Shown piece by piece: positions 52,643-62,353 of a stretch of DNA of 62,830 bases. The notes under the pieces are model-generated. The model made no database searches and was not told where the DNA came from. It was given only the letters and a program-made list of their open reading frames with translations. The stretch is from assembly GCA_000934665.2 (NCBI GenBank), contig KZ538547.1:1-62830 (forward strand), given 5' to 3'. Position numbers and translations under genes: made by a program. The stretch is from Catajapyx aquilonaris (lineage: Eukaryota). Position 1 is the stretch's first letter, and every line of letters starts with the position of its first letter.

Positions 52643-54644
52643 TCAACTGGAACAGCTGACACGTATTTTATGGGCCCAATGTGGTGGTGGCTGGGCATAA
52701 CCATGCTTTTCAGCTTCTTCATGCGTGACGAATGGGTTTTGAAGAATCTTCAGGAGCAGCTGGACTTCATCATAGTTGCCCTGATCTGCCTTCTCAATAG
52801 CAGACTGGGCCATCCAGTTTCGCAAGACATACCGTGGGTTGGTCTGCACCATTCTTTTCTGAACTTCCTCAATCTTGCCTTCCTTTGCTGCCCTTGCCAC
52901 ATACCAATCTACAAATTTGTTCCACTGCTTGTGATGGGTCAGAGGTGCCAGGGCCCATTCAGTCTTTGGGCATGGCTTTTTCCACATCTCAGGGGTGACT
53001 TCAGAAAGTTGTCGAAATGTCATGGTGAAGTCCGTCTTGACCAGTGCCATCATTTCCAGCAGTTCTTCAATCTTCACTAAGTCTCCATCCAAAACTGACT
53101 TGAACCCAAGTTTGGCTGCAAATACCTGTGCCCTCTCCCTCTTGTAATGACCATCATACTCCTTTGTCCGGTCGGACAGCTTCTCTTGATTTTCACGGGA
53201 TATCAGTGGTGCCAGAGCTGCAGCCAAACGCAAAAGGTTAAAGTTGCCAATATCTGGCTGCTGGGAGTAAGCATAACGTCCCCAGTCATCAGAGTGGTTT
53301 GGGATAAAATCAGGTTCGTATGTGTCCAAAAATCCGTAAGGCCCGTAATCAATTGATATCGATAAAATTGACATGTTGTCAGTATTCATTACTCCGTGGG
53401 CAAACCCAACAGCCTGCCATCGTGCTATCATGGCTGCCGTCTGTCTTATTACTGTTGATAGGAAGTCCAGGTACTTATCATCACCAGATGATTTTATTTC
53501 CCTGGAACAAGTTTAAAATACAGTAAAGGCTGGAAAGGAGACTTTTAATGAACATATTAAGTCTTACGGAAAGTGTTCCTTGATGATAAAGTCAGCCAGA
53601 GTTTTGAGGGAACCATGCTCGCCGTGCTTTGCCAGAATTTCAAACGATCCAAAACGAAACCAAGATGGGGCCAGCCGAAGCACTACCGTCGCCTTCTCAA
53701 CAGTGGGATGTCCATCATAAAACTGGTCCCTTCTCACTGGGTCATTGGATGTCACCAGAGTTCCAGCTCTGGAAGTTGGTACCCCTGGCCATGCAAGAGA
53801 AAATACGCATTAATCTTTTTGATCCACTTGAACCACGCCAGCAACCCACCTAAATGAAACATTGCCTCTGAGGCTAGGAATTCCCTAACGGACGACCTCA
53901 GCACAGCCCTCCCATCTGCGTCCCTGGAATATGGGGTCATCCCAGACCCCTTCAGTTGCAACTCCCACCTCTCCCCATTCTGGTTAATATACTCTCCTAG
54001 GAGATGGGCTCTCCCATCCCCCAGCTGGTCGGCCCACATGCCAAACTGATGTCCTCCATACCGATGGGCAAGTGGGGTTGACCCTTCCACGAGACGGTTC
54101 CCAACCATCAGCTCAGCAAGAAATTGGGCTTCAGATTCATCAGCAGCCACTCGATCAGGGTCAATGTCAAGTATTTTGGACAGGACATCCGGTGTTACGG
54201 CCACCAAGTGAAGCTTTGTTTGTAAAGGGGTAGGGCTCACCTGATGCAAAAAAGTTATGATCAAGTAATGCCCGTAAGTTCAACAACATAACAGATTATC
54301 TTTTTATCACCTGTGTGATAACTGTTCAGCCATTTTACCTTTGAAAATATGGCTTGCTTCACATATCGCCTGACAAAATTCTTCTCCTCCGGATCCATGG
54401 GCAACTGCTGCAATTTGAAGGAGTTGAACCTGAAATCCTTCACAGAGAGCAACTTGTGTCCTCCACCACCTTTGCCCCCAGATGACGTCCCCGCCTCTGC
54501 CCCGCTCATGCTGCAGCGGGCGAGAAATATGCTCCTAGTCGTAGGGCGTGGGCAGGACTGTCCCGCGGCGACCTCTGACCCGAGTGTCGTGCCCACTAGG
54601 ACGGCAAAAACCCTGAACAAGTGTCCCACTAATCTGTTTCCCAT
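52643..54644 (-). CDS. SelO: SelO/YdiU-family protein adenylyltransferase (AMPylase), Cys-containing form, ~590 aa
   Basis: Exons 54644-54339 (alternative ATG at 54674), 54240-53850, 53784-53568, 53501-52643. Motifs [60 protein letters not shown]-terminus VSCSS. Confidence 0.95.
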
Positions 54645-54925
54645 CTCACGACCGCCGCCATCTTCAAACCGCATCCGAATAGCCCATGCCCATTGCACAA
54701 TTGCAGTAAATGTACAATATTTTACAAATATATTTGCATTTGTACGTTTTATAAATACACATAGCACGATCTAGCTGCAGATAGGTCACAGGTTATGACC
54801 TTTGTCAAGCACACACGCTGATTACGTCACATGCAATTCGGACACGGGCTGTGCTGTACACGTTCGATGCCATCAAGTCACTTTTGACCCGTCGGCCTGA
54901 CCTGCCCGTTAGGTCTATTCCTATG

Positions 54926-57603
54926 ATGGCTTACACCACCGAATATATTAAGGACAAGCTTCTGAAGGAACTGGAGGCCTCCCACGTTGTGAGTCGCACC
55001 CTACTTTTGTGTATATTTCTTAACATGAGTTACGTGCCGCCAAGAGTAAATGGTGCCGCTTAATGCTGAGATGCGGCCTTGTGATTGTTGCAAAATGACC
55101 ATTTTTTGTGCCCCTAAGGCTACCTCCTCTTTTTTGCATCACTTCTCTGGGTCATGACGTGGGTGCTTACCTTGTGGAGGTGGGGGATCCACCAGTGCAG
55201 TTTTCCTGCTTGGTGGGATCGCAGTGTATAGACGCATAGGGTGTACTTTTAAGAAAATGGCCCATTTCGAGCTTGTTTCTTGCATTATGGCATAGTTGAT
55301 TAATGTCGTATGATGAGCTTGTAGTGTGGTTACACTAGGATTAGAATTGGTACTAAGTGCACTTGTTTAGCCAGACTGTGACTAGCCCCTGTTCCATCTC
55401 AGATCCACTAAGTAAGCGCAAACCAAAATCCTCTGAACCATGTTGGTGTGGATCCTTGCATCGTGCGCCTGGGGGCTGCTTCTCCGATGGTCTACAGGCC
55501 TCTCGTCCTATTCTGGTCAGGGAAGGCCACCTATGTACGGTGACTATGAGGCCCAGCGCCACTGGATGGAGGTCACCATCAACCTGCCTGTTGAAGACTG
55601 GTATCGCCAGACGCCAGAGAATGACCTGCAGTACTGGGGATTGGACTACCCCCCCTTGACTGCCTACCACAGTTATGCATGTGGTCTGGTTGCTAAACAT
55701 ATCAATCCTGAGTTCGTGGCATTGAATAAGTCACGTGGATTTGAATCTAAAGAGCACAAGTTTTTCATGCGAGCAAGCGTTTTAGTTGGCGATATATTGC
55801 TCTTCTTCCCGCTTCTGGTGTGGTTCTTTAAGATGGCGATGGATCAAAAGAAGAGCCGGTTTTATCTAGGAGAATTAACAGTTAATGATGCTGCCACTGC
55901 AATTGGTGTGGCAGCGACCTATCCCGGTTTGATTCTAATAGATTACGGGCATTTCCAGTACAATTCGGTGTCATTAGGGTTAGCGCTAGGTGGTGTAGCA
56001 GCATTAGGAAAGGGCATGGAGTCACTGGGATCTTTGCTGTTTGTGATGGCGCTGAACCATAAGCAAATGGAGCTGTATCATGCACTGCCTTTCTTTTGGT
56101 ATCTGTTTGGGTTGTGCTGCTTTAGGCGCGGAGGATTTAAGAGGCTTGTTAAGGTTGGGGCTACTGTTGTAGTTGCATTTTGGGTCATATGGTTGCCATT
56201 TTTGGTGCAGAGCCATGGGGCACTAGATGTGCTGCACCGCCTCTTTCCATTGTACCGAGGCGTGTTCGAGGACAAAGTGGCCAACTTTTGGTGCACATTG
56301 AACAATTTCGTGAAGATTCGCAACCTATACAGCCAAAGTGAGATCACACTCATGTGCTTGTTGACCACTGCCCTTCTTTCGCTCCCGTCTTCCTTACACT
56401 TGTTCCGAAGACCCACCCTCTCCAACTTCCTCTATTCCCTTCTCAACGTTTCCCTCATCTTCTTCCTTTTTTCATACCAAGTGCATGAAAAGAGCGTCCT
56501 TCTCGTTGCACTTCCTGCCTTGCTCCTCTTCCCAAAACATCCAAGGTCTATTTACTGGTTTTTGGCTGTAACTACATTCAGTATGACTCCTTTGCTCTTG
56601 AAGGATGGACTGCTGGTCCCAATCATTGCCTTGTCCATCATATTTCATGTGGTTGCCACGGAAGTGATGCAGGACACTGGTAAAGGGAAAGCCAAGGACA
56701 AAACAAGCCCATTCATGAAATCAGTAATGAAATATTCACTCAGAGGATGTGTGGCACTGTTTGCTCTCTCCGTCTTCGGCACTCCTCCTGATAAATATCC
56801 GGACTTGTACCCTGTCCTTGTGTCGGCCTATTCCTGTGCTCACCTTGTCCCATTTTCAATTTTTTTCCACTGGAAACAGTTTCAAGCTAAATGAGTGCAC
56901 TGTACCAATTATTGCAGATTAAAAATTAGTTTCATGACGTACAATGTCTTTAATTTGCCTCCTAAAGTTTCTGTAGTGTAGAGTAATGTACGAGTATGTA
57001 TATGCATGTGTTAAGTATTAGCAACAGCATGTGCAGTAAATACATTAACATAATTCATATAATCTGTACTTTCTTGTCAATTTCTTTTGAAATCAAAAAA
57101 GTCAAACCTCTTACACTCCTGCACAAGTTCAGAACCGTAATGCTTAAACTGTTCCGTTAATCTGTATGCAATCAGGTGACAATTATTTACATTGGTAAGG
57201 TGGTGTTTCATAACAAGCTCAAGGACATATGGAGTCTAATGCAATTGTAAATTTTCATCTTAAGAGATATTGCTTGACAACAGCACCTTATGCAAGCTAA
57301 GTACTTGAATCTTGAATTACTTGAATCATTACTATTAGTCACCATGTTGGATGTTACACTTGATGGGATTCAGTCAGTAAGTATCCACATGTCTCTTCCT
57401 GATCAATACAGGAAGTGGAGGACCTCTCAGACGGATGTGGCTCCAAGTTTAGTGTACTGGTGGTCTCGTCCAAGTTTGAGGGAAAGCCCCTGCTGCAGCG
57501 ACATCGACTGGTGAACTCATCCTTGGCAGTGGAATTGGGCAGCATACACGCTCTGAGCCAGAAAACTCTGACGCCAGAGCAGTGGGCAAACCAGAAGCCA
57601 TGA
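54926..57603 (+). CDS. BolA2: BolA-like protein 2 (Fe-S cluster/glutaredoxin partner), ~84 aa
   Basis: Exons 54926-54988 (extra in-frame ATG at 54923; donor gtgagt) and 57412-57603 join in phase 0: MAYTTEYIKDKLLKELEASHV|EVEDLSDGCGSKFSVLVVSSKFEGKPLLQRHRLVN...IHALSQKTLTPEQW. Confidence 0.92.
55440..56894 (+). CDS. ALG6: Dolichyl-PP-Man9GlcNAc2 alpha-1,3-glucosyltransferase, 484 aa, intronless, inside the BolA2 intron
   Basis: Single ORF with PPMYGDYEAQRHWMEVT, YWGLDYPPLTAYHSY, LIDYGHFQYN, KQMELYHALPFF, RGVFEDKVANFWC, FSYQVHEKS. ATTAAA at ~56918. Confidence 0.96.
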   Translation: MLVWILASCAWGLLLRWSTGLSSYSGQGRPPMYGDYEAQRHWMEVTINLPVEDWYRQTPENDLQYWGLDYPPLTAYHSYACGLVAKHINPEFVALNKSRGFESKEHKFFMRASVLVGDILLFFPLLVWFFKMAMDQKKSRFYLGELTVNDAATAIGVAATYPGLILIDYGHFQYNSVSLGLALGGVAALGKGMESLGSLLFVMALNHKQMELYHALPFFWYLFGLCCFRRGGFKRLVKVGATVVVAFWVIWLPFLVQSHGALDVLHRLFPLYRGVFEDKVANFWCTLNNFVKIRNLYSQSEITLMCLLTTALLSLPSSLHLFRRPTLSNFLYSLLNVSLIFFLFSYQVHEKSVLLVALPALLLFPKHPRSIYWFLAVTTFSMTPLLLKDGLLVPIIALSIIFHVVATEVMQDTGKGKAKDKTSPFMKSVMKYSLRGCVALFALSVFGTPPDKYPDLYPVLVSAYSCAHLVPFSIFFHWKQFQAK

Positions 57604-58813
57604 GTTTCCAGCCATTTGCCATCTCCTCCCCATCTAAGGTCATCCTCCATGGGGAGCACTCTGTTGTGTATGGCAAAACAGCTGTTGCTGTGTCGGTTGG
57701 GTTGCGCTTGCGTGTCACTGTCAGGCGCCACCCAACCGGTGGAGTGACCCTTGACCTGCCTGCCATGTCATTCAAGCGGCACTGGACCAATCTTGGAATC
57801 ACTTCCCTGCTGAAAGCCAGATCTAACTTGAACTGGTCTGAACCCCAGCCGGCCGATGACTTAATCCAAGCCATACGTGAATTTGTACACAGCGATGAAT
57901 TGACAGCTCAGCAAGAAATGGCCTTGGTGTCATTCCTGTACTTATATTCGGCCATACTTGGAGAGGCCATACCTATGTGTGTCCGAATAGACTCATGTGT
58001 TCCATTTGGAGCTGGCATGGGGAGCTCGGCTGCTTACGCTGTGGCCTTATCGGCAGCCATGCTACACGTGGGCGGACACTGTCAGGGCGATAACCTTCCA
58101 CGTGACCTCATCTCACGCTGGGCCTTCTGCAGTGAAGGAATAGTCCATGGCACCCCTTCAGGGATAGACAACTCCACTTGCACCATGGGAGGTGCAGTCA
58201 GCTTCCGGGCAGGAAAGGCAGAGCCACTTGGAAGCAAGATCCCTGCACTGAAGGTGTTGCTTGTGGATACTGGGGTCAGCAGGAGCACCAAACGACTAGT
58301 TGAGCTTGTCCGGGAGAAGCGGGGGAGGCACCCACAGGTTGTGGATGCAGTACTGGATGCAATGGATGCTGTGGCTAAATCAGCACTGGAGGAACTACGC
58401 AGCCTGAAGATGGGTGATGCGAACCAGTTTCACTTCTTGGAGGTAACTTTTTTAAGTATTACACAATACATCATCAATGCATTTCCAGCAGATTTGGGCA
58501 GATCATGTGACCAATGTGATGCAAAAAATTCCAGGAGCTCGTTGACTTGAACCAGTCTCTGTTGGCAACTCTGGGTGTATCTCATCCGAGCTTGGACCGC
58601 ATCGTGTCTGTAGCTGCCTCCCATGGTTTTCATGCCAAATTGACTGGTGCTGGTGGAGGGGGACTGGCCTTTGTTCTGCTGGCTCCAGGAGCAGAGCCGG
58701 CCACTGCGAAGCTCCTGAAGGACGAGCTGGAATCTGAAGGATTTCGTACTTGGCAGACGGAGCTGGGAGTGGATGGGGTGCGGGTTGAGGATCTGGACAT
58801 GGGAAGAGCTTGA
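57600..58813 (+). CDS. MVK: Mevalonate kinase, ~373 aa
   Basis: Exons 57600-58442, 58535-58813. Motifs SSPSKVILHGEHSVVYGK, GHMP loop PFGAGMGSSAA, HGTPSGIDN, KLTGAGGGG. The ATG overlaps the BolA2 stop. Confidence 0.95.
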
Positions 58814-59417
58814 AGAAATATGAAATTTTGTAGAAAGATAAAATATGTTATTCAACATTGGCCAGTACTGGCACCATTTTATATACACCAGGGATGAGGG
58901 GAAAATAATTTAGTACAATTTGTATGGTACTTAAAAATAATATCTTGTAGATGTGGAACATTGTAGCTCTGCACAAACAGTGATACCTTATTATTTCAAT
59001 CCTTATCTTCTAGCTATGGTATAAACTATAAAGGATGATGATAAAATACTGTTACTGTACATGTAGATTTGCTGGACCACTCAAAATTGTGTTTTGTGTA
59101 AAAAATATACTTGTGATTGGGCTAACTTGATTTGGCAACGTGATCGTCTAGTTCTATACAGTCTGCTTACAACTTTGAAGGAACTTGACCGACACATCTC
59201 ATTGTGATGTTAGCTTTGTCACTTTGCCGCCTTGATAAACCACTGTCCAAGCTACATTCATGTATTCATGCAACTTGCTGTGTGCCCTGGAATGTGAGCA
59301 ACTGCAGGTGGCCTGTCTAGGTGGCTCATGATGCGTCACAAGCAGAACCTGTCACTACAATGTGGACTTGTGCATTAAGGTATGTGGCTAAACCTTCTCT
59401 TATACTGAGACAGAATG

Positions 59418-62353
59418 TTACACATCTGCAATGTGGTTGGCATTGCTTACAGGTGACAGGCTACTCTGCTCTTCCTCCTCCTCCTCGGCCTTTCTCAGCC
59501 ATTCAGAAATCTCTTTCTGGTACATTCGCTGCAACAACACGTCTTTGGTGCGAGATCGCCTTCCTTGATAAGCGACCATGCCCTCCTGTTGCAAATCCAG
59601 TGCAAATTGCTGCAGTAAATGAACATCGCTTGTGTTGTGATAGCACACATTCAGTTCTTCTTGAGTCAGTTGAACCTCCACACACAGCATCTTTCGCTCT
59701 GAAATTTATGGTGCACATAAGATTACAATGTAGCTAACATAAGGCATAACCTTACCTTCTGCTTTCCCCATGGTCCTCTTATATTGTATGCGAAACACAA
59801 ATGTCTCCAGCACAAAGGCAACGATGATGGTCAGAACCACCATGGTAACAAGGTAAAACAGCATGAAATATAAGCGACTCCACTGAGACGTCACTGCTGC
59901 ATATGCATCCATAATGATAAACCAGTTGTTTACCACAGTCAGTTCAAAGAGAGTTATAAAGCTGGTGGTTAGGTCACTGAAGGTATTCAAGTAGTAGTAG
60001 CCCTGGTATATTGAGGCATTGTCCACCTTGTAAAACTGTTCCACAGTTGTGTTCCTGAAATAAGGCTTATTATGAATGGAACATGACAAAGAAAATGGAA
60101 GTCCCTTACACGCAACAGTTTTTCATCTCGTATCCAGAAAACAGCTCCATGCCAACAATGGCAAAGGAGTAATACAAAATCAGCAGCACGACAGCTGCAG
60201 CTCCCATCCTCGGCAGTAAAATGAACAGAGTTCCAAAAACATCCCGGTACCGCTTCTTCAGCTTGAAGAAACGCAGCAGTCGAATTGGCCTCAGCAGGGC
60301 CATAGTGGCAGAAGAAAAGTTGAGGTATTCCAGAAGTGAGCCGATGGCTGCCCCAATTGTGACCCCAAGATCAAAGACATTCCATCCAGATGCAAAATAC
60401 TGCACTGGTCCAAGGCCACCCAATTTTAAGGCAGCCTCCACAGCGTACACTGTCAAGTACATGATTATATTGTCAATGAAAAGAAGATTTGAAACAACCA
60501 GATGTACCTACATGAAAGGAATACAATCGCATCCCAAGATGTCTGGTGACCTATTTTCAGGCCACTAACATCAAACGTCCTCAGCAAAAGAGCAATAGCA
60601 TTTGCCAATATAATAGCATCTGGAAAGTTATTATTATTCAATTAAAATTGTATTACATCTTGATCAACACTTCGCATTGTTATTCAATACTTACAGACTG
60701 CCCAGTCAAAATACTTCCATGTAACAAGTTTGTATAGGTACCGAGATATCCTGGACCAATGAGGAGGAAGCATCTCATACCAGGGAGTTTCCTGAATGCG
60801 TTTTGGACGCCACAGGACAACCAACAAATTGTACACATTTTGAAATTCTGCCAATGTCAACCTCCCTGTCCTGGACACATTTAGAGCTTTGAAGGACAGA
60901 TACACATCTCTTCTGGCTGTAAAGCAACGATGGATAAGAACCATCCATTCACATGTGTACATGTACTTGAACATACACATTTTCGGTCTGTAGTGCCTTA
61001 GTAGGCCTGCATAATGGTGGAAGACAATGTGATCTGGCCTCTGTCGAGATACCAACAACCGGAAAGCATGTTGGCATGCCTTTCGCTTGTGAAGCAGCAG
61101 ACGGTGGAACTTCTCCTTCTCAAATGTTGTGAAAGTTTCATACACCACAGCCAACAGCTAAAAAAATAACATCAAATTATTTCAAAACACACACATCAAT
61201 TACGACTTAAACTTACGAGATTCATCAGGAAATACAGAGTGACGCAGAGGTACACAACAAAAAACAATGCAGACCATCTGCTATTGGCATATGCTGGCAT
61301 CATCACATCTGGGTAACTGAGCGAGATAGATAATTCATAAATACATATCAGATTTGCATTTTACGCACACCTTACTTTGCTGTGGTGAGTAGCACAAAAA
61401 GGCTGACAAATGCCTCAGGAAGTGAAGAGAAATATGGGTTCCTGGGGTCTGTCCCAAACATGTATAGTCCCAGAAGGCTAAAAAGAAGGACAAATACTAG
61501 GAGCAGGACCAGCATGTCGAGGATGGGCGGAAGGCTCTGCAGAACTTGTCTCAGGAATCGCCTCATCCCACCACAGTAGCGGTTGTCCACAAGAAATAGG
61601 GGTCGGAGGGCACGGGTAACACGGAAGTGAGATGATTGCCGCACCAGCACCACGATGGATTCCACTACCATTATCAGAAGAGTACCTGCCTGAATAAGGA
61701 CCACAATATCAGGTAATGTACTCGTTCAATCCACAATTTAATGCATATTTACCTTCAGCATTGTCCGCTTATGAAAGAGGAAAGGTCTCCATCCAAGCCA
61801 CCGCAGCTTCATTGCCAGTTCTATTCCCATGATGACTAACAGGCACAGTTCAATTGACCCATGAATTCCCACTGGCAACTGCAATGAAAATGGACATCTT
61901 TACATTTTTATGTCCTGTTACGACATTTATTACATTCATTACCAGACTGGCATAAATAGGACAAAGGGGAATGTCCGACGCAACTTTGGCAATGCCAGTG
62001 TTGTATTACCTGGAAGACAGTAGAAGCAGGCTGTTCCACGAGGGCAAGTGCCAGTAGTGCCAGTGACGCAATCAGGTCCAACCAGTAGAACCAGCGGTTG
62101 TGCACCACCAGGTAAGCCGGAAGGGCTTCCCTGTTCCTGGGATGGGAGGTGAACTTGTCATTGTTGGCACCTTCCTCCAGAAAGATTGCTGCTTCCTGGT
62201 AGTTCATCTCCCAGTGCCACAGGACCTTGGACGGACTCATGTCTTCTTCAACTGGGGAACTCATCTCCGTGTTGGGGAGGATGGGCATCGATGTTTCGAA
62301 GTTGCGGCCTATCATCTCCTGCGGGCCATCCGAATCCTGACTTGTGTTTGTCC
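59418..62353 (-). CDS. TPC1: Two-pore endolysosomal cation channel, TPC1-like (5' end uncertain)
   Basis: Exons 62353-62010, 61878-61753, 61689-61376, 61316-61217, 61157-60977, 60916-60695, 60619-60512, 60449-60110, 60054-59756, 59698-59418. Motifs WEMNYQEAAIFLEEG, RVTRALRPLFL, pore I LLTTANYPDVMMP, pore II FELTVVNNW. The start is either an in-exon Met or in an upstream exon not resolved. Confidence 0.93.

What the first reader, a model, noticed from the sequence alone, without database searches (positions are those of the whole stretch)
57412..58813. BolA2 and mevalonate kinase overlap at ATGA: probable dicistronic mRNA with stop-start coupling
Seen: ...CAG AAG CCA TGA. The BolA2 stop (57601-57603) overlaps the MVK ATG (57600-57602) in the -1 frame within one exon, leaving no room for a polyA site or promoter. 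The MVK N-terminal motif (SSPSKVILHGEH) begins eight residues later, so this ATG is the natural start. BolA2 has no internal Met and only one out-of-frame ATG (57435, 5-codon ORF), which suits leaky scanning or reinitiation. Established: AUGA overlaps mediate translational coupling in bacteria and some viruses and are rare in animal nuclear genes. From memory, unverified: Drosophila Mvk and a BolA gene are annotated as dicistronic, which would make the arrangement ancient. Inference: termination-reinitiation or leaky scanning couples an Fe-S factor to isoprenoid synthesis.
Basis: partly seen in the sequence, partly recalled or inferred. Interest (0 to 1): 0.88.

Follow-up and report, generated by a model that had tools for sequence, protein, structure and literature searches.

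The report
BolA2-ALG6-MVK shared transcription unit
The stop codon of a small iron-sulfur helper gene (BolA2) does overlap the start codon of mevalonate kinase, but this gene pair is already known to share a messenger RNA in fruit flies; the new point is that a third gene, ALG6, sits inside BolA2's intron and borrows its first exon.

Summary
The BolA2 stop (TGA, 57601-57603) and the MVK start (ATG, 57600-57602) share ATGA. An RNA-derived contig matches the genome across this junction with no indel.

The pairing is not new. Drosophila CG33672 (BolA2) and CG33671 (Mvk) have been annotated as dicistronic since 2002. There the spacer is 397 nt and Mvk also has an alternative promoter.

RNA contigs splice BolA2 exon 1 (ending 54988) onto the ALG6 exon (starting 55403).

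RefSeq isoform and accession numbering in crayfish, lobster, mantis shrimp and prawn point to a three-gene locus conserved in Pancrustacea. So do a thrips ALG6+BolA2 fused gene model and a butterfly MVK model that begins with the BolA2 exon-1 peptide.

Stop-start translational coupling is untested and not favoured:
- There is no TGGGA (TURBS motif 1) upstream.
- ATG scarcity in BolA2 is not significant (P=0.33).
- The BolA2 AUG at 54926 has a strong context.
- Depth data imply RNA that starts in the intron just upstream of BolA2 exon 2.

Verdict: a new, maximally compact member of a known arthropod dicistron, with an apparently undescribed shared-exon ALG6 partner. Interest is moderate.

The parts
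54861..54988 (+). Shared first exon. It holds a 6-codon uORF (ATG 54867) and the BolA2 start codons (54923, weak context; 54926, A-3/G+4), followed by 21 BolA2 codons. The 5' splice site GTGAGT begins at 54989.
   Evidence: Record 2 carries 128 nt on the left of the joint 54988->55403, and the depth bins fit a start at 54861. Sequence. ATG contexts.
54989..55402 (+). Intron removed when exon 1 is joined to the ALG6 exon (GT..AG, 414 nt).
   Evidence: Joint 54988->55403, depth 17.2, one contig. The bins show no cover of the intron interior.
55403..56941 (+). ALG6 exon. After the splice the BolA2 frame runs two more codons and stops at TAA 55409-55411. A 28-nt spacer follows. The ALG6 CDS is 55440-56894 (484 aa). 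ATTAAA lies at 56918 and the RNA contig ends at 56941.
   Evidence: Pfam Alg6_Alg8 1.5e-138 covering profile positions 4-479 of 482.
54989..57411 (+). BolA2 intron (phase 0, GT..AG), inferred. It contains the whole ALG6 exon.
   Evidence: The splice is inferred from end-to-end alignment of the exon 1 + exon 2 product with 11 of 11 BolA2 orthologues. The joint was not seen in the RNA contigs.
57250..57411 (+). Transcribed stretch directly upstream of BolA2 exon 2, probably the leader of a transcript that starts inside the intron. The start coordinate is approximate (57252-57295). It carries up to four uATGs (57290, 57344, 57351/57363, 57389).
   Evidence: Inference from the depth bins. Bin 57158-57431 has depth 4.26, which the shown records do not explain, and 56942-57157 has no cover. 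The cross-check is the 0.76 share of words. uATGs.
57412..57603 (+). BolA2 exon 2 (63 codons plus TGA).
   Evidence: Pfam BolA 3.1e-17. 77-79% identical to cricket and Daphnia BolA2.
57600..57603 (+). ATGA: the MVK start codon overlaps the BolA2 stop codon.
   Evidence: The RNA contig is identical to the genome here.
57600..58442 (+). MVK coding exon A (281 codons).
   Evidence: GHMP_kinases_N. Best hits are malacostracan MVK at 44-48% identity.
58443..58534 (+). MVK intron (92 nt, GT..AG).
   Evidence: Joint 58440->58533 (cut +2).
58535..58813 (+). MVK coding exon B (92 codons plus TGA 58811-58813).
   Evidence: (GHMP_kinases_C 3e-8).

Best explanation
This is the arthropod BolA2-MVK two-gene transcription unit in its most compact form, set inside a three-gene locus.

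One promoter (about 54.7-54.86 kb, back to back with SelO) drives a first exon that holds the BolA2 start codon. That exon has two fates:
(a) It is spliced to the ALG6 exon at 55403. The truncated BolA2 frame then becomes a 23-24-codon upstream ORF, and the mRNA ends at about 56941.
(b) It is spliced past ALG6 to BolA2 exon 2 at 57412. This gives full-length BolA2 on an mRNA that must run on into MVK, because the BolA2 stop lies inside the MVK start codon.

BolA2 is therefore made from a dicistronic BolA2-MVK mRNA, as in Drosophila.

MVK protein probably comes largely from a second, shorter transcript. It starts in the intron a little upstream of BolA2 exon 2 and carries that exon only as an untranslated leader, like the alternative Mvk promoter of Drosophila. 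Reinitiation or leaky scanning on the dicistronic mRNA would be a minor or conditional route.

Shown: the ORFs, the overlap, the exon 1 to ALG6 splice, RNA continuity from 57529 through MVK, and the linkage in other pancrustaceans.
Inferred: the exon 1 to exon 2 splice, the internal start, and which mRNA feeds MVK translation.
For: - ORFs and overlap.
- RNA contigs: joint 54988->55403 (GT..AG, depth 17.2). The ALG6 contig ends 23 nt after ATTAAA 56918. The MVK contig starts at 57529, inside BolA2 exon 2, and is identical to the genome through 58440, so there is no separate MVK start within 71 nt of its ATG.
- No AATAAA or ATTAAA lies between 57412 and 58813.
- The exon 1 + exon 2 product aligns across the junction with 11 of 11 orthologues.
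- Internal start: three hidden single-piece records are needed to explain the depth table. One must cover part of 57158-57431 and part of 57432-57528 contiguously, while 56942-57157 and 54989-55402 have no cover. The run's 0.76 share of words fits this model (my estimate 0.755-0.765) better than a model without that record (0.70).
- Precedent: CG33672 is 'di/polycistronic only'. [quoted passage not shown]
- Conservation:
  - Procambarus clarkii XP_045616974.1, XP_045616975.1 and XP_045616976.1 are ALG6-like isoform X1, MVK-like isoform X2 and bolA-like 2 isoform X3.
  - Oratosquilla XP_076069370-373 are ALG6 X1, BolA2 X2 and MVK, all on one chromosome.
  - Homarus MVK X2 and BolA2 X4 lie on one scaffold.
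  - Palaemon ALG6 and MVK are three accession numbers apart.
  - Two Petrolisthes species have adjacent locus tags.
  - A Frankliniella fusca gene model is ALG6 followed by BolA2 exon 2.
  - A Maniola MVK model begins with the BolA2 exon-1 peptide.
Against: - No contig showed the 54988->57412 joint. The BolA2-encoding dicistronic mRNA is therefore not directly seen. Contigs drop rare forms, so this is not proof of absence.
- The internal-start record was not displayed. Its extent is my arithmetic on depth bins. A very short, deep contig beginning at 57412 cannot be strictly excluded.
- A leader starting near 57.25-57.30 kb would carry several uATGs, which is not an obviously good MVK mRNA.
- The MVK contig begins exactly after an AG (57528-57529), which is unexplained and could mark another processing event.
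- The absence of canonical poly(A) signals is weak evidence, because MVK's own 3' region (58814-59700) has none either.
- The run's library type is not on record. I call it RNA only because its contigs carry eight GT..AG or CT..AC joints and skip introns.
- 'One gene' in the RefSeq species is inferred from consecutive accessions and isoform labels, not from gene records I could read.
Confidence: 0.6

Rival explanations
1. MVK is translated mainly from the dicistronic BolA2-MVK mRNA by termination-reinitiation at the shared AUGA (or by leaky scanning), which couples MVK output to BolA2 translation.
For: - The four-base overlap places the terminating ribosome on the MVK AUG.
- Only one short out-of-frame ORF intervenes.
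- The MVK AUG has a purine at -3 (GCCATGA).
- Other notes of this scan report further tightly packed dicistrons in the same genome, including another ATGA overlap (unchecked AI notes, leads only).
- AUGA and UAAUG overlaps do drive reinitiation in caliciviruses and influenza B (PMC10275272, passages read).
Against: - Reinitiation after a long ORF in the studied cases needs a TURBS element. TGGGA does not occur in 57412-57600.
- BolA2 is 84-85 codons long with a strong AUG at 54926, so both reinitiation and leaky scanning should be inefficient (established scanning rules; my inference).
- ATG scarcity is not significant (P=0.33).
- The overlap is not conserved. The spacer is 397 nt in D. melanogaster. 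In P. clarkii I infer more than about 40 nt, because the 18-codon upstream extension of P0382 shows no trace of the BolA2 C-terminus in another frame.
- Decapod BolA2 has an internal in-frame Met.
- There is evidence for an intron-internal transcript start.
Confidence: 0.2
2. MVK mRNAs are generated by a processing event at the AG at 57528-57529 inside BolA2 exon 2. This would be an alternative 3' splice site fed by some upstream exon, or trans-splicing of a leader. MVK would then be monocistronic with a 70-nt leader, as in an operon resolved by splicing.
For: The MVK contig begins at 57529, immediately after ...TTGGCAG. A de Bruijn contig end needs a branch or a gap. A butterfly RefSeq MVK model (P0121) joins the BolA2 exon-1 peptide to MVK through a short out-of-frame stretch, as if an acceptor inside BolA2 exon 2 were used there.
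Against: - No joint to 57529/57530 and no loose end were reported (tables 5 and 7).
- Splicing exon 1 to 57530 would stop after 8 codons and is not in the MVK frame (my reading).
- Nothing on a spliced leader turned up in two look-ups of this scan's notes on this genome (unchecked notes).
- A heterozygous SNP or a coverage gap would break the contig equally well.
Confidence: 0.1
3. BolA2 at this locus is a decaying remnant. Exon 1 now serves only as the ALG6 leader and exon 2 only as the MVK leader, and BolA2 protein is made elsewhere or not at all.
For: The exon 1 to exon 2 joint was not seen, while exon 1 to ALG6 was.
Against: Both exons keep an intact frame. Identity to orthologues is 69-77% across the whole length. 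The conserved CG, RHRLVN and IHA motifs are present. No second BolA2 copy lies in the window. The same split arrangement is kept in distant taxa.
Confidence: 0.05

Closest known systems
Drosophila melanogaster CG33672 (BolA2-like) / CG33671 (Mvk) dicistronic locus, 2R:12634166..12636141. Sources: Misra et al. 2002 as cited in Hayden & Bosco 2008 (PMC2276209), and Crosby et al. 2015 (PMC4528330) File S1.
   Same: The same two orthologous genes lie in the same order on one strand. BolA2 is the upstream cistron with no transcript of its own. Mvk also has a shorter transcript from an alternative promoter, which is documented in the fly and inferred here. Hayden & Bosco list the pair as conserved to Apis.
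   Different: The spacer is 397 nt in the fly against a 4-base overlap here. The fly locus spans 2 kb, and no row for gny (ALG6) was found in the 12 of 13 supplementary files searched. Here ALG6 lies in the BolA2 intron and uses BolA2 exon 1.
[quoted passage not shown] 2015, section read). Cholinergic-locus-type nested genes (ChAT/VAChT) are a related case, recalled and not read here.
   Same: One first exon is spliced alternatively to two unrelated gene bodies, and the nested gene lies in the host's first intron on the same strand.
   Different: Here the shared exon is coding for one partner (it holds the BolA2 start and 21 codons) and so becomes a strong-context uORF for the other (ALG6). 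The host gene is itself the upstream cistron of a dicistron.
Viral termination-reinitiation at overlapping stop/start codons (caliciviruses, influenza B; review PMC10275272, passages read).
   Same: AUGA-type overlap of an upstream long ORF's stop with the downstream ORF's start, out of frame.
   Different: The TURBS motif complementary to 18S rRNA is required there. No TGGGA was found here. Dependence of MVK on BolA2 translation is untested.
Leaky-scanning bicistrons: MOCS2 (mentioned in PMC2276209) and green-algal bicistronic loci (PMC11892635, listing and abstract only).
   Same: Two unrelated or related proteins from one capped mRNA with few intervening AUGs.
   Different: Those rely on a weak upstream AUG. 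Here the second BolA2 AUG has an optimal context, and the AUG depletion is not significant.

Membership tests
Arthropod BolA2-Mvk dicistronic locus (CG33672/CG33671 type) | Orthologues of BolA2 and mevalonate kinase, in this order on one strand | tested here: met
   Pfam BolA 3e-17, GHMP_kinases_N 1e-11 and GHMP_kinases_C 3e-8. Best hits are named bolA-like protein 2 and mevalonate kinase.
Arthropod BolA2-Mvk dicistronic locus (CG33672/CG33671 type) | No terminator or poly(A) site and no obligatory promoter between the cistrons | tested here: met
   The ORFs overlap by 4 bases. No AATAAA or ATTAAA lies in 57412-58813. The RNA contig is continuous from 57529 through MVK.
Arthropod BolA2-Mvk dicistronic locus (CG33672/CG33671 type) | A processed mRNA that contains both complete ORFs | tested here: inconclusive
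   The contigs cover only the last 75 nt of BolA2 together with MVK. The 54988->57412 joint is not among the 8 joints listed. Contigs cannot show absence.
Arthropod BolA2-Mvk dicistronic locus (CG33672/CG33671 type) | Alternative monocistronic transcript for the downstream gene (fly: alternative promoter) | tested here: inconclusive
   Inferred from depth bins and share of words. The record itself was not displayed, and there are no 5'-end data.
TURBS-dependent termination-reinitiation | Stop and restart codons within a few nucleotides | tested here: met
   ATGA at 57600-57603.
TURBS-dependent termination-reinitiation | Upstream motif complementary to 18S rRNA (UGGGA core; motif recalled, requirement cited) | tested here: not met
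   0 occurrences of TGGGA in 57412-57600. Only TGGG at 57536 and 57583.
TURBS-dependent termination-reinitiation | Downstream ORF translation depends on upstream ORF translation and termination | not testable with these tools
   Needs reporters or ribosome profiling.
Genes sharing a promoter and first exon (nested, same strand) | One 5' exon joined alternatively to two gene bodies | tested here: inconclusive
   Exon 1 to ALG6 is seen in RNA (joint 54988->55403). Exon 1 to BolA2 exon 2 is supported only by homology across the junction.
Genes sharing a promoter and first exon (nested, same strand) | Complete nested gene with its own 3' end inside the host intron | tested here: met
   ALG6 ORF of 484 aa covers Pfam profile positions 4-479 of 482. 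ATTAAA at 56918 and contig end at 56941.
Leaky-scanning bicistron | Weak context at the upstream AUG and depletion of intervening AUGs | tested here: not met
   AUG 54926 has A-3/G+4. There is 1 internal ATG against a shuffle mean of 2.0, P(<=1)=0.33 over 20000 synonymous shuffles.
SL trans-spliced operon | Spliced leader joined to the downstream cistron | tested here: inconclusive
   No loose ends or foreign letters at 57529 (tables 5c and 7). Contigs would break at a shared leader, so this cannot be excluded.

The most novel reading that the evidence does not exclude
This is an ancient pancrustacean three-gene unit in which one promoter and one coding leader exon feed BolA2, ALG6 and MVK. 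A splice choice at exon 1 decides which enzyme mRNA is made. The BolA2 reading frame doubles as the translational gate for both: truncated, it is a 23-24-codon strong-context uORF before ALG6; full-length, it is the upstream cistron abutting MVK at AUGA. MVK supplies the isoprenoid precursors of dolichol, and ALG6 glucosylates the dolichol-linked glycan (pathway knowledge, not tested here). The unit could therefore co-regulate the supply of dolichol and its use in N-glycosylation.
Probability: 0.2. Interest if true: 0.6.

Novelty: new member of a known kind. Interest (0 to 1): 0.38.

Why it matters
The BolA2-Mvk pair is one of the original Drosophila dicistronic genes. This window shows the same pair in a distant arthropod, squeezed to a 4-base overlap. 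Protein-database metadata show the linkage in decapods, a stomatopod, a thrips and a butterfly. The arrangement is therefore old and the spacer is free to vary from 397 nt to -4, which argues against a fixed coupling mechanism.

The less expected result is that ALG6 belongs to the same unit through a shared first exon that is coding for BolA2. I found no paper describing this in two full-text searches. It gives a compact natural system for asking how arthropod ribosomes reach downstream ORFs after strong upstream AUGs. It also allows a test of whether dolichol-pathway genes are co-regulated. It does not change any general concept.

Tried and rejected
- RNA runs: no RNA holder is listed. The single run found (X1) has no library type on record, and I treated it as RNA-derived only because its contigs are spliced.
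- No whole genome is held for this window, so other BolA2 copies and spliced-leader genes could not be sought.
- Metagenome scan with an MVK alignment: 80 loci kept, at 25-38% identity and mostly with large-contig, prokaryote-like context. tblastn with BolA2 exon 2 found 0 of 80 with a hit better than E=0.13. The collection holds no useful arthropod relatives.
- MVK homologue search: 0 of 120 listed hits carry a BolA Pfam domain, so there are no annotated BolA-MVK fusions in that length range.
- Pairing BolA2 and MVK Logan transcript contigs by equal longest-contig length gave 1847, 1863 and 2314. I estimate about 3 chance coincidences among roughly 64 x 73 pairs. This counts only where the taxon also matches (caridean-like pair; P. 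clarkii).
- ATG-depletion test: not significant.
- TURBS core motif: absent.
- Rfam over 54000-59800: 0 matches at gathering score.
- Duplicates of exon 1, exon 2 or the intron in the window: none.
- Literature search for the map position of Drosophila gny/ALG6: unproductive, because 'gny' matches unrelated words. Whether fly ALG6 lies near CG33672 was not established.
- Earlier notes of this scan: nothing at this place, by these words or by this sequence.
- Structure prediction, complex prediction and the atlas were not used, because both protein families are clear from Pfam.


Full report
1. OBSERVATION

The sequence reads ...CAG AAG CCA TGA GTT TCC... at 57589-57609.
- In one frame, 57412-57603 translates to 63 residues of a BolA domain followed by TGA (Pfam BolA 3.1e-17).
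- In the frame one base back, ATG 57600 opens 281 codons of mevalonate kinase (GHMP_kinases_N 1.1e-11).
- After a 92-nt GT..AG intron (58443-58534), 92 more codons follow (GHMP_kinases_C 3e-8), ending at TGA 58811-58813.
- The MVK frame is open from 57480 but has no earlier ATG. The conserved SSPSKVILHGEH motif begins at residue 9. So 57600 is the start, and the four bases ATGA are shared.
- BolA2 needs an upstream exon. ATG 54923/54926 to 54988, followed by GTGAGT, supplies 21-22 codons.
- The conceptual exon 1 + exon 2 product aligns end to end with 11 of 11 BolA2 orthologues tested, at 69-77% identity over 81-83 residues. Of the 21 exon-1 residues, 9-16 are identical.

2. WHAT THE FINDING LEAVES OUT

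The 2.4-kb interval between the two BolA2 exons is not empty.
- It holds, on the same strand, an uninterrupted 484-codon ORF (55440-56894). This is a full-length ALG6 glucosyltransferase (Pfam Alg6_Alg8 1.5e-138, profile positions 4-479 of 482). It is about 50% identical to mollusc and crustacean ALG6 over 94-100% of its length.
- The neighbours are eIF3c (+, 50.3-52.3 kb), SelO (-, 52.6-54.3 kb, with a 5' exon reaching about 54.69 kb) and an ion-transport channel gene (-, 59.7 kb to beyond 60.6 kb).

3. RNA EVIDENCE

One public run holds 76% of the sampled words of 54800-58950.
- Its library type is not on record. Its contigs carry eight canonical joints (GT..AG on +, CT..AC on -) and skip introns, so I treat it as RNA-derived.

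What the contigs show:
(a) One contig (depth 17.2) joins 54988 to 55403 and runs to 56941, with 128 nt to the left of the joint.
   - BolA2 exon 1 is therefore spliced to the ALG6 exon.
   - After the splice the BolA2 frame continues for two codons and stops at TAA 55409-55411, 28 nt before the ALG6 ATG.
   - ALG6 mRNA thus carries a 23-24-codon uORF that starts at the BolA2 AUGs. The second AUG has A at -3 and G at +4.
   - The contig ends 23 nt after the only ATTAAA in the region (56918).
(b) Another contig starts at 57529, inside BolA2 exon 2. It is identical to the genome through the ATGA and MVK, confirms the MVK intron, and then merges with the convergent channel gene.
   - So there is no indel at the overlap, and no MVK-specific start within 71 nt of its ATG.
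(c) No listed joint links 54988 to 57412.

4. INFERENCE FROM THE DEPTH TABLE (my arithmetic, not a displayed result)

- Six records were laid and three were shown.
- The three shown records reproduce 25 of the 30 depth bins almost exactly.
- The remaining signal falls in three places: the left end, about 54.35-54.69 kb (the SelO 5' exon), and a stretch spanning bins 57158-57431 (depth 4.26) and 57432-57705 (about 827 depth-nt beyond the MVK contig).
- The piece count leaves exactly one single-piece record for each place.
- The third record therefore runs contiguously across the exon-2 acceptor (57411/57412). If it abuts the MVK contig, it starts at about 57252-57295.
- By contrast, 56942-57157 and 54989-55402 have no cover at all.
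- Independent check: with this record the covered 31-mers would be 0.755-0.765 of the stretch, and without it about 0.70. The run's measured share is 0.76 on 432 words.
- The simplest reading is a transcript that starts in the intron downstream of the ALG6 poly(A) site and carries BolA2 exon 2, without its start codon, as leader to MVK.
- Its leader would contain uATGs (57290, 57344 and 57389 share one frame ending at 57514; also 57435).
- One Inr-like TCAGTC lies at 57370.
- The start of the MVK contig right after the AG at 57528-57529 is unexplained.

5. WHAT IS KNOWN

D. melanogaster CG33672 (BolA-like, 86 aa) and CG33671 (mevalonate kinase) are among the dicistronic genes of Misra et al. 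2002. Hayden & Bosco 2008 list the pair as a conserved uORF/mORF pair with an Apis EST as the most distant match (PMC2276209, passages and tables read).
- FlyBase's table (Crosby et al. 2015, PMC4528330, File S1 rows read) says CG33672 is 'di/polycistronic only'. [quoted passage not shown]
- Crosby et al. also describe 130 fly genes that share a promoter and 5' exons with a neighbour (section read).
- Reinitiation after long ORFs at AUGA/UAAUG overlaps is documented for caliciviruses and influenza B, and there it needs a TURBS element (PMC10275272, passages read).

6. CONSERVATION (from protein-database metadata, since no arthropod genome DNA was available)

The window's MVK is closest to malacostracan MVKs at only 44-48% identity. 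The organism is an arthropod without a close relative in the collection, and I did not determine the species.

Same-species linkage:
- Procambarus clarkii: XP_045616974.1 is ALG6-like isoform X1, XP_045616975.1 is MVK-like isoform X2 and XP_045616976.1 is bolA-like 2 isoform X3.
- Oratosquilla oratoria: XP_076069370/371 are ALG6 isoform X1, XP_076069372 is BolA2 isoform X2 and XP_076069373 is MVK-like. All lie on the 52.87-Mb chromosome.
- Homarus americanus: MVK isoform X2 and BolA2 isoform X4, two accession numbers apart, on one scaffold.
- Palaemon carinicauda: ALG6 isoform X1 and MVK, three accession numbers apart, on one chromosome.
- Petrolisthes manimaculis and P. cinctipes: MVK and BolA2 carry adjacent locus tags.
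- Consecutive accessions with running isoform labels imply one gene model. That is my inference.
- Frankliniella fusca (thrips): a GenBank model (595 aa, Pfam BolA + ALG6; the only such case, 1 of 120 listed ALG6 hits) is ALG6 followed by the BolA2 exon-2 peptide. ALG6 therefore lies upstream of BolA2 exon 2 there too.
- Maniola hyperantus (butterfly): the RefSeq 'mevalonate kinase' begins with the BolA2 exon-1 peptide (15 of 24 identical).

Against universality:
- In the barnacle Pollicipes, BolA2 and ALG6 are on different chromosomes.
- In 8 non-arthropod species with two of the genes in my lists, the pair sits on different contigs in 8 of 8. The species are Lingula, Capitella, Gigantopelta, Mercenaria, Mactra, Babylonia, Bradybaena and Nucella. 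Some are only scaffold-level assemblies.

The overlap itself is not conserved:
- The spacer is 397 nt in the fly.
- In crayfish, the 18 codons upstream of the MVK start in a transcript-derived ORF (P0382) show no frame-shifted trace of the BolA2 C-terminus. The gap there is more than about 40 nt (inference).

7. MECHANISM

Shown: the overlap, the exon 1 to ALG6 splice, and RNA continuity from BolA2's last 75 nt through MVK.

Inferred with good support: BolA2 protein requires the exon 1 to exon 2 splice. Its mRNA must then extend into MVK, because its stop lies in the MVK start and there is no AATAAA or ATTAAA before the MVK stop. That last point is weak, because MVK's own 3' region has none either. 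BolA2 should therefore be 'dicistronic only', as in the fly.

How MVK is translated is open. Four points argue against efficient coupling or leaky scanning:
- The upstream ORF is 84-85 codons with an optimal AUG.
- There is no TGGGA in exon 2.
- The ATG count is not below expectation (P=0.33).
- The spacing is not conserved.
Together with the inferred internal start and the fly's alternative promoter, I think MVK comes mainly from a shorter transcript. I give about 0.6 to this overall picture, 0.2 to coupling as the main route, 0.1 to a processing event at 57529 and 0.05 to BolA2 being a remnant.

8. NOVELTY AND VERDICT

- The BolA2-MVK dicistron is a known, annotated arrangement. This is a new and extreme member of it.
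- The shared-exon ALG6 partner and its conservation across Malacostraca and into insects did not appear in two full-text searches. A third search on Drosophila ALG6 was uninformative. The supplements of Hayden & Bosco were not examined, and one Crosby supplementary file could not be searched.
- A possible rationale is that MVK feeds dolichol synthesis and ALG6 acts on the dolichol-linked glycan. That is pathway knowledge and speculation.
- Interest is moderate (0.38). This is a tidy example for the study of downstream-ORF translation in arthropods, not a new principle.

Noticed in passing
window 55403-56941: A complete single-exon ALG6 gene lies inside the BolA2 intron on the same strand. Its mRNA uses BolA2 exon 1, so the BolA2 start codons open a 23-24-codon uORF that ends 28 nt before the ALG6 ATG.
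   Followed up: yes
window 57529: The RNA contig that covers MVK begins exactly after the AG at 57528-57529, inside BolA2 exon 2. A contig end needs a graph branch or a gap. The cause (alternative acceptor, SNP or leader trans-splicing) is unknown.
   Followed up: partly
window 54690-54861: The SelO gene (- strand) and the BolA2/ALG6 first exon (+ strand) appear to start about 170 nt apart, a likely bidirectional promoter. Both ends are estimated from contig ends and depth bins.
   Followed up: partly
window 58814-59700: One contig runs from MVK into the convergent ion-channel gene, so the two 3' ends abut or overlap. Neither strand has a canonical AATAAA/ATTAAA signal in this stretch.
   Followed up: partly
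protein P0121 (RefSeq mevalonate kinase, Maniola hyperantus): This 463-aa model starts with the BolA2 exon-1 peptide. It continues through a GC-rich, repeat-like stretch of about 58 residues into MVK. It could be a real BolA2-exon-1/MVK isoform or a gene-model artefact of the same locus type.
   Followed up: partly
protein P0307 (GenBank KAK3927387.1, Frankliniella fusca): This gene model fuses ALG6 to the BolA2 exon-2 peptide. It is most likely a mis-joined model, and it reveals the same ALG6-in-BolA2-intron layout in a thrips.
   Followed up: yes
window 57195-57200 and 57377-57382: Two consensus-like 5' splice sites (G|GTAAGG and A|GTAAGT) lie in the interval between ALG6 and BolA2 exon 2. 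No joint uses them in the contigs laid.
   Followed up: no
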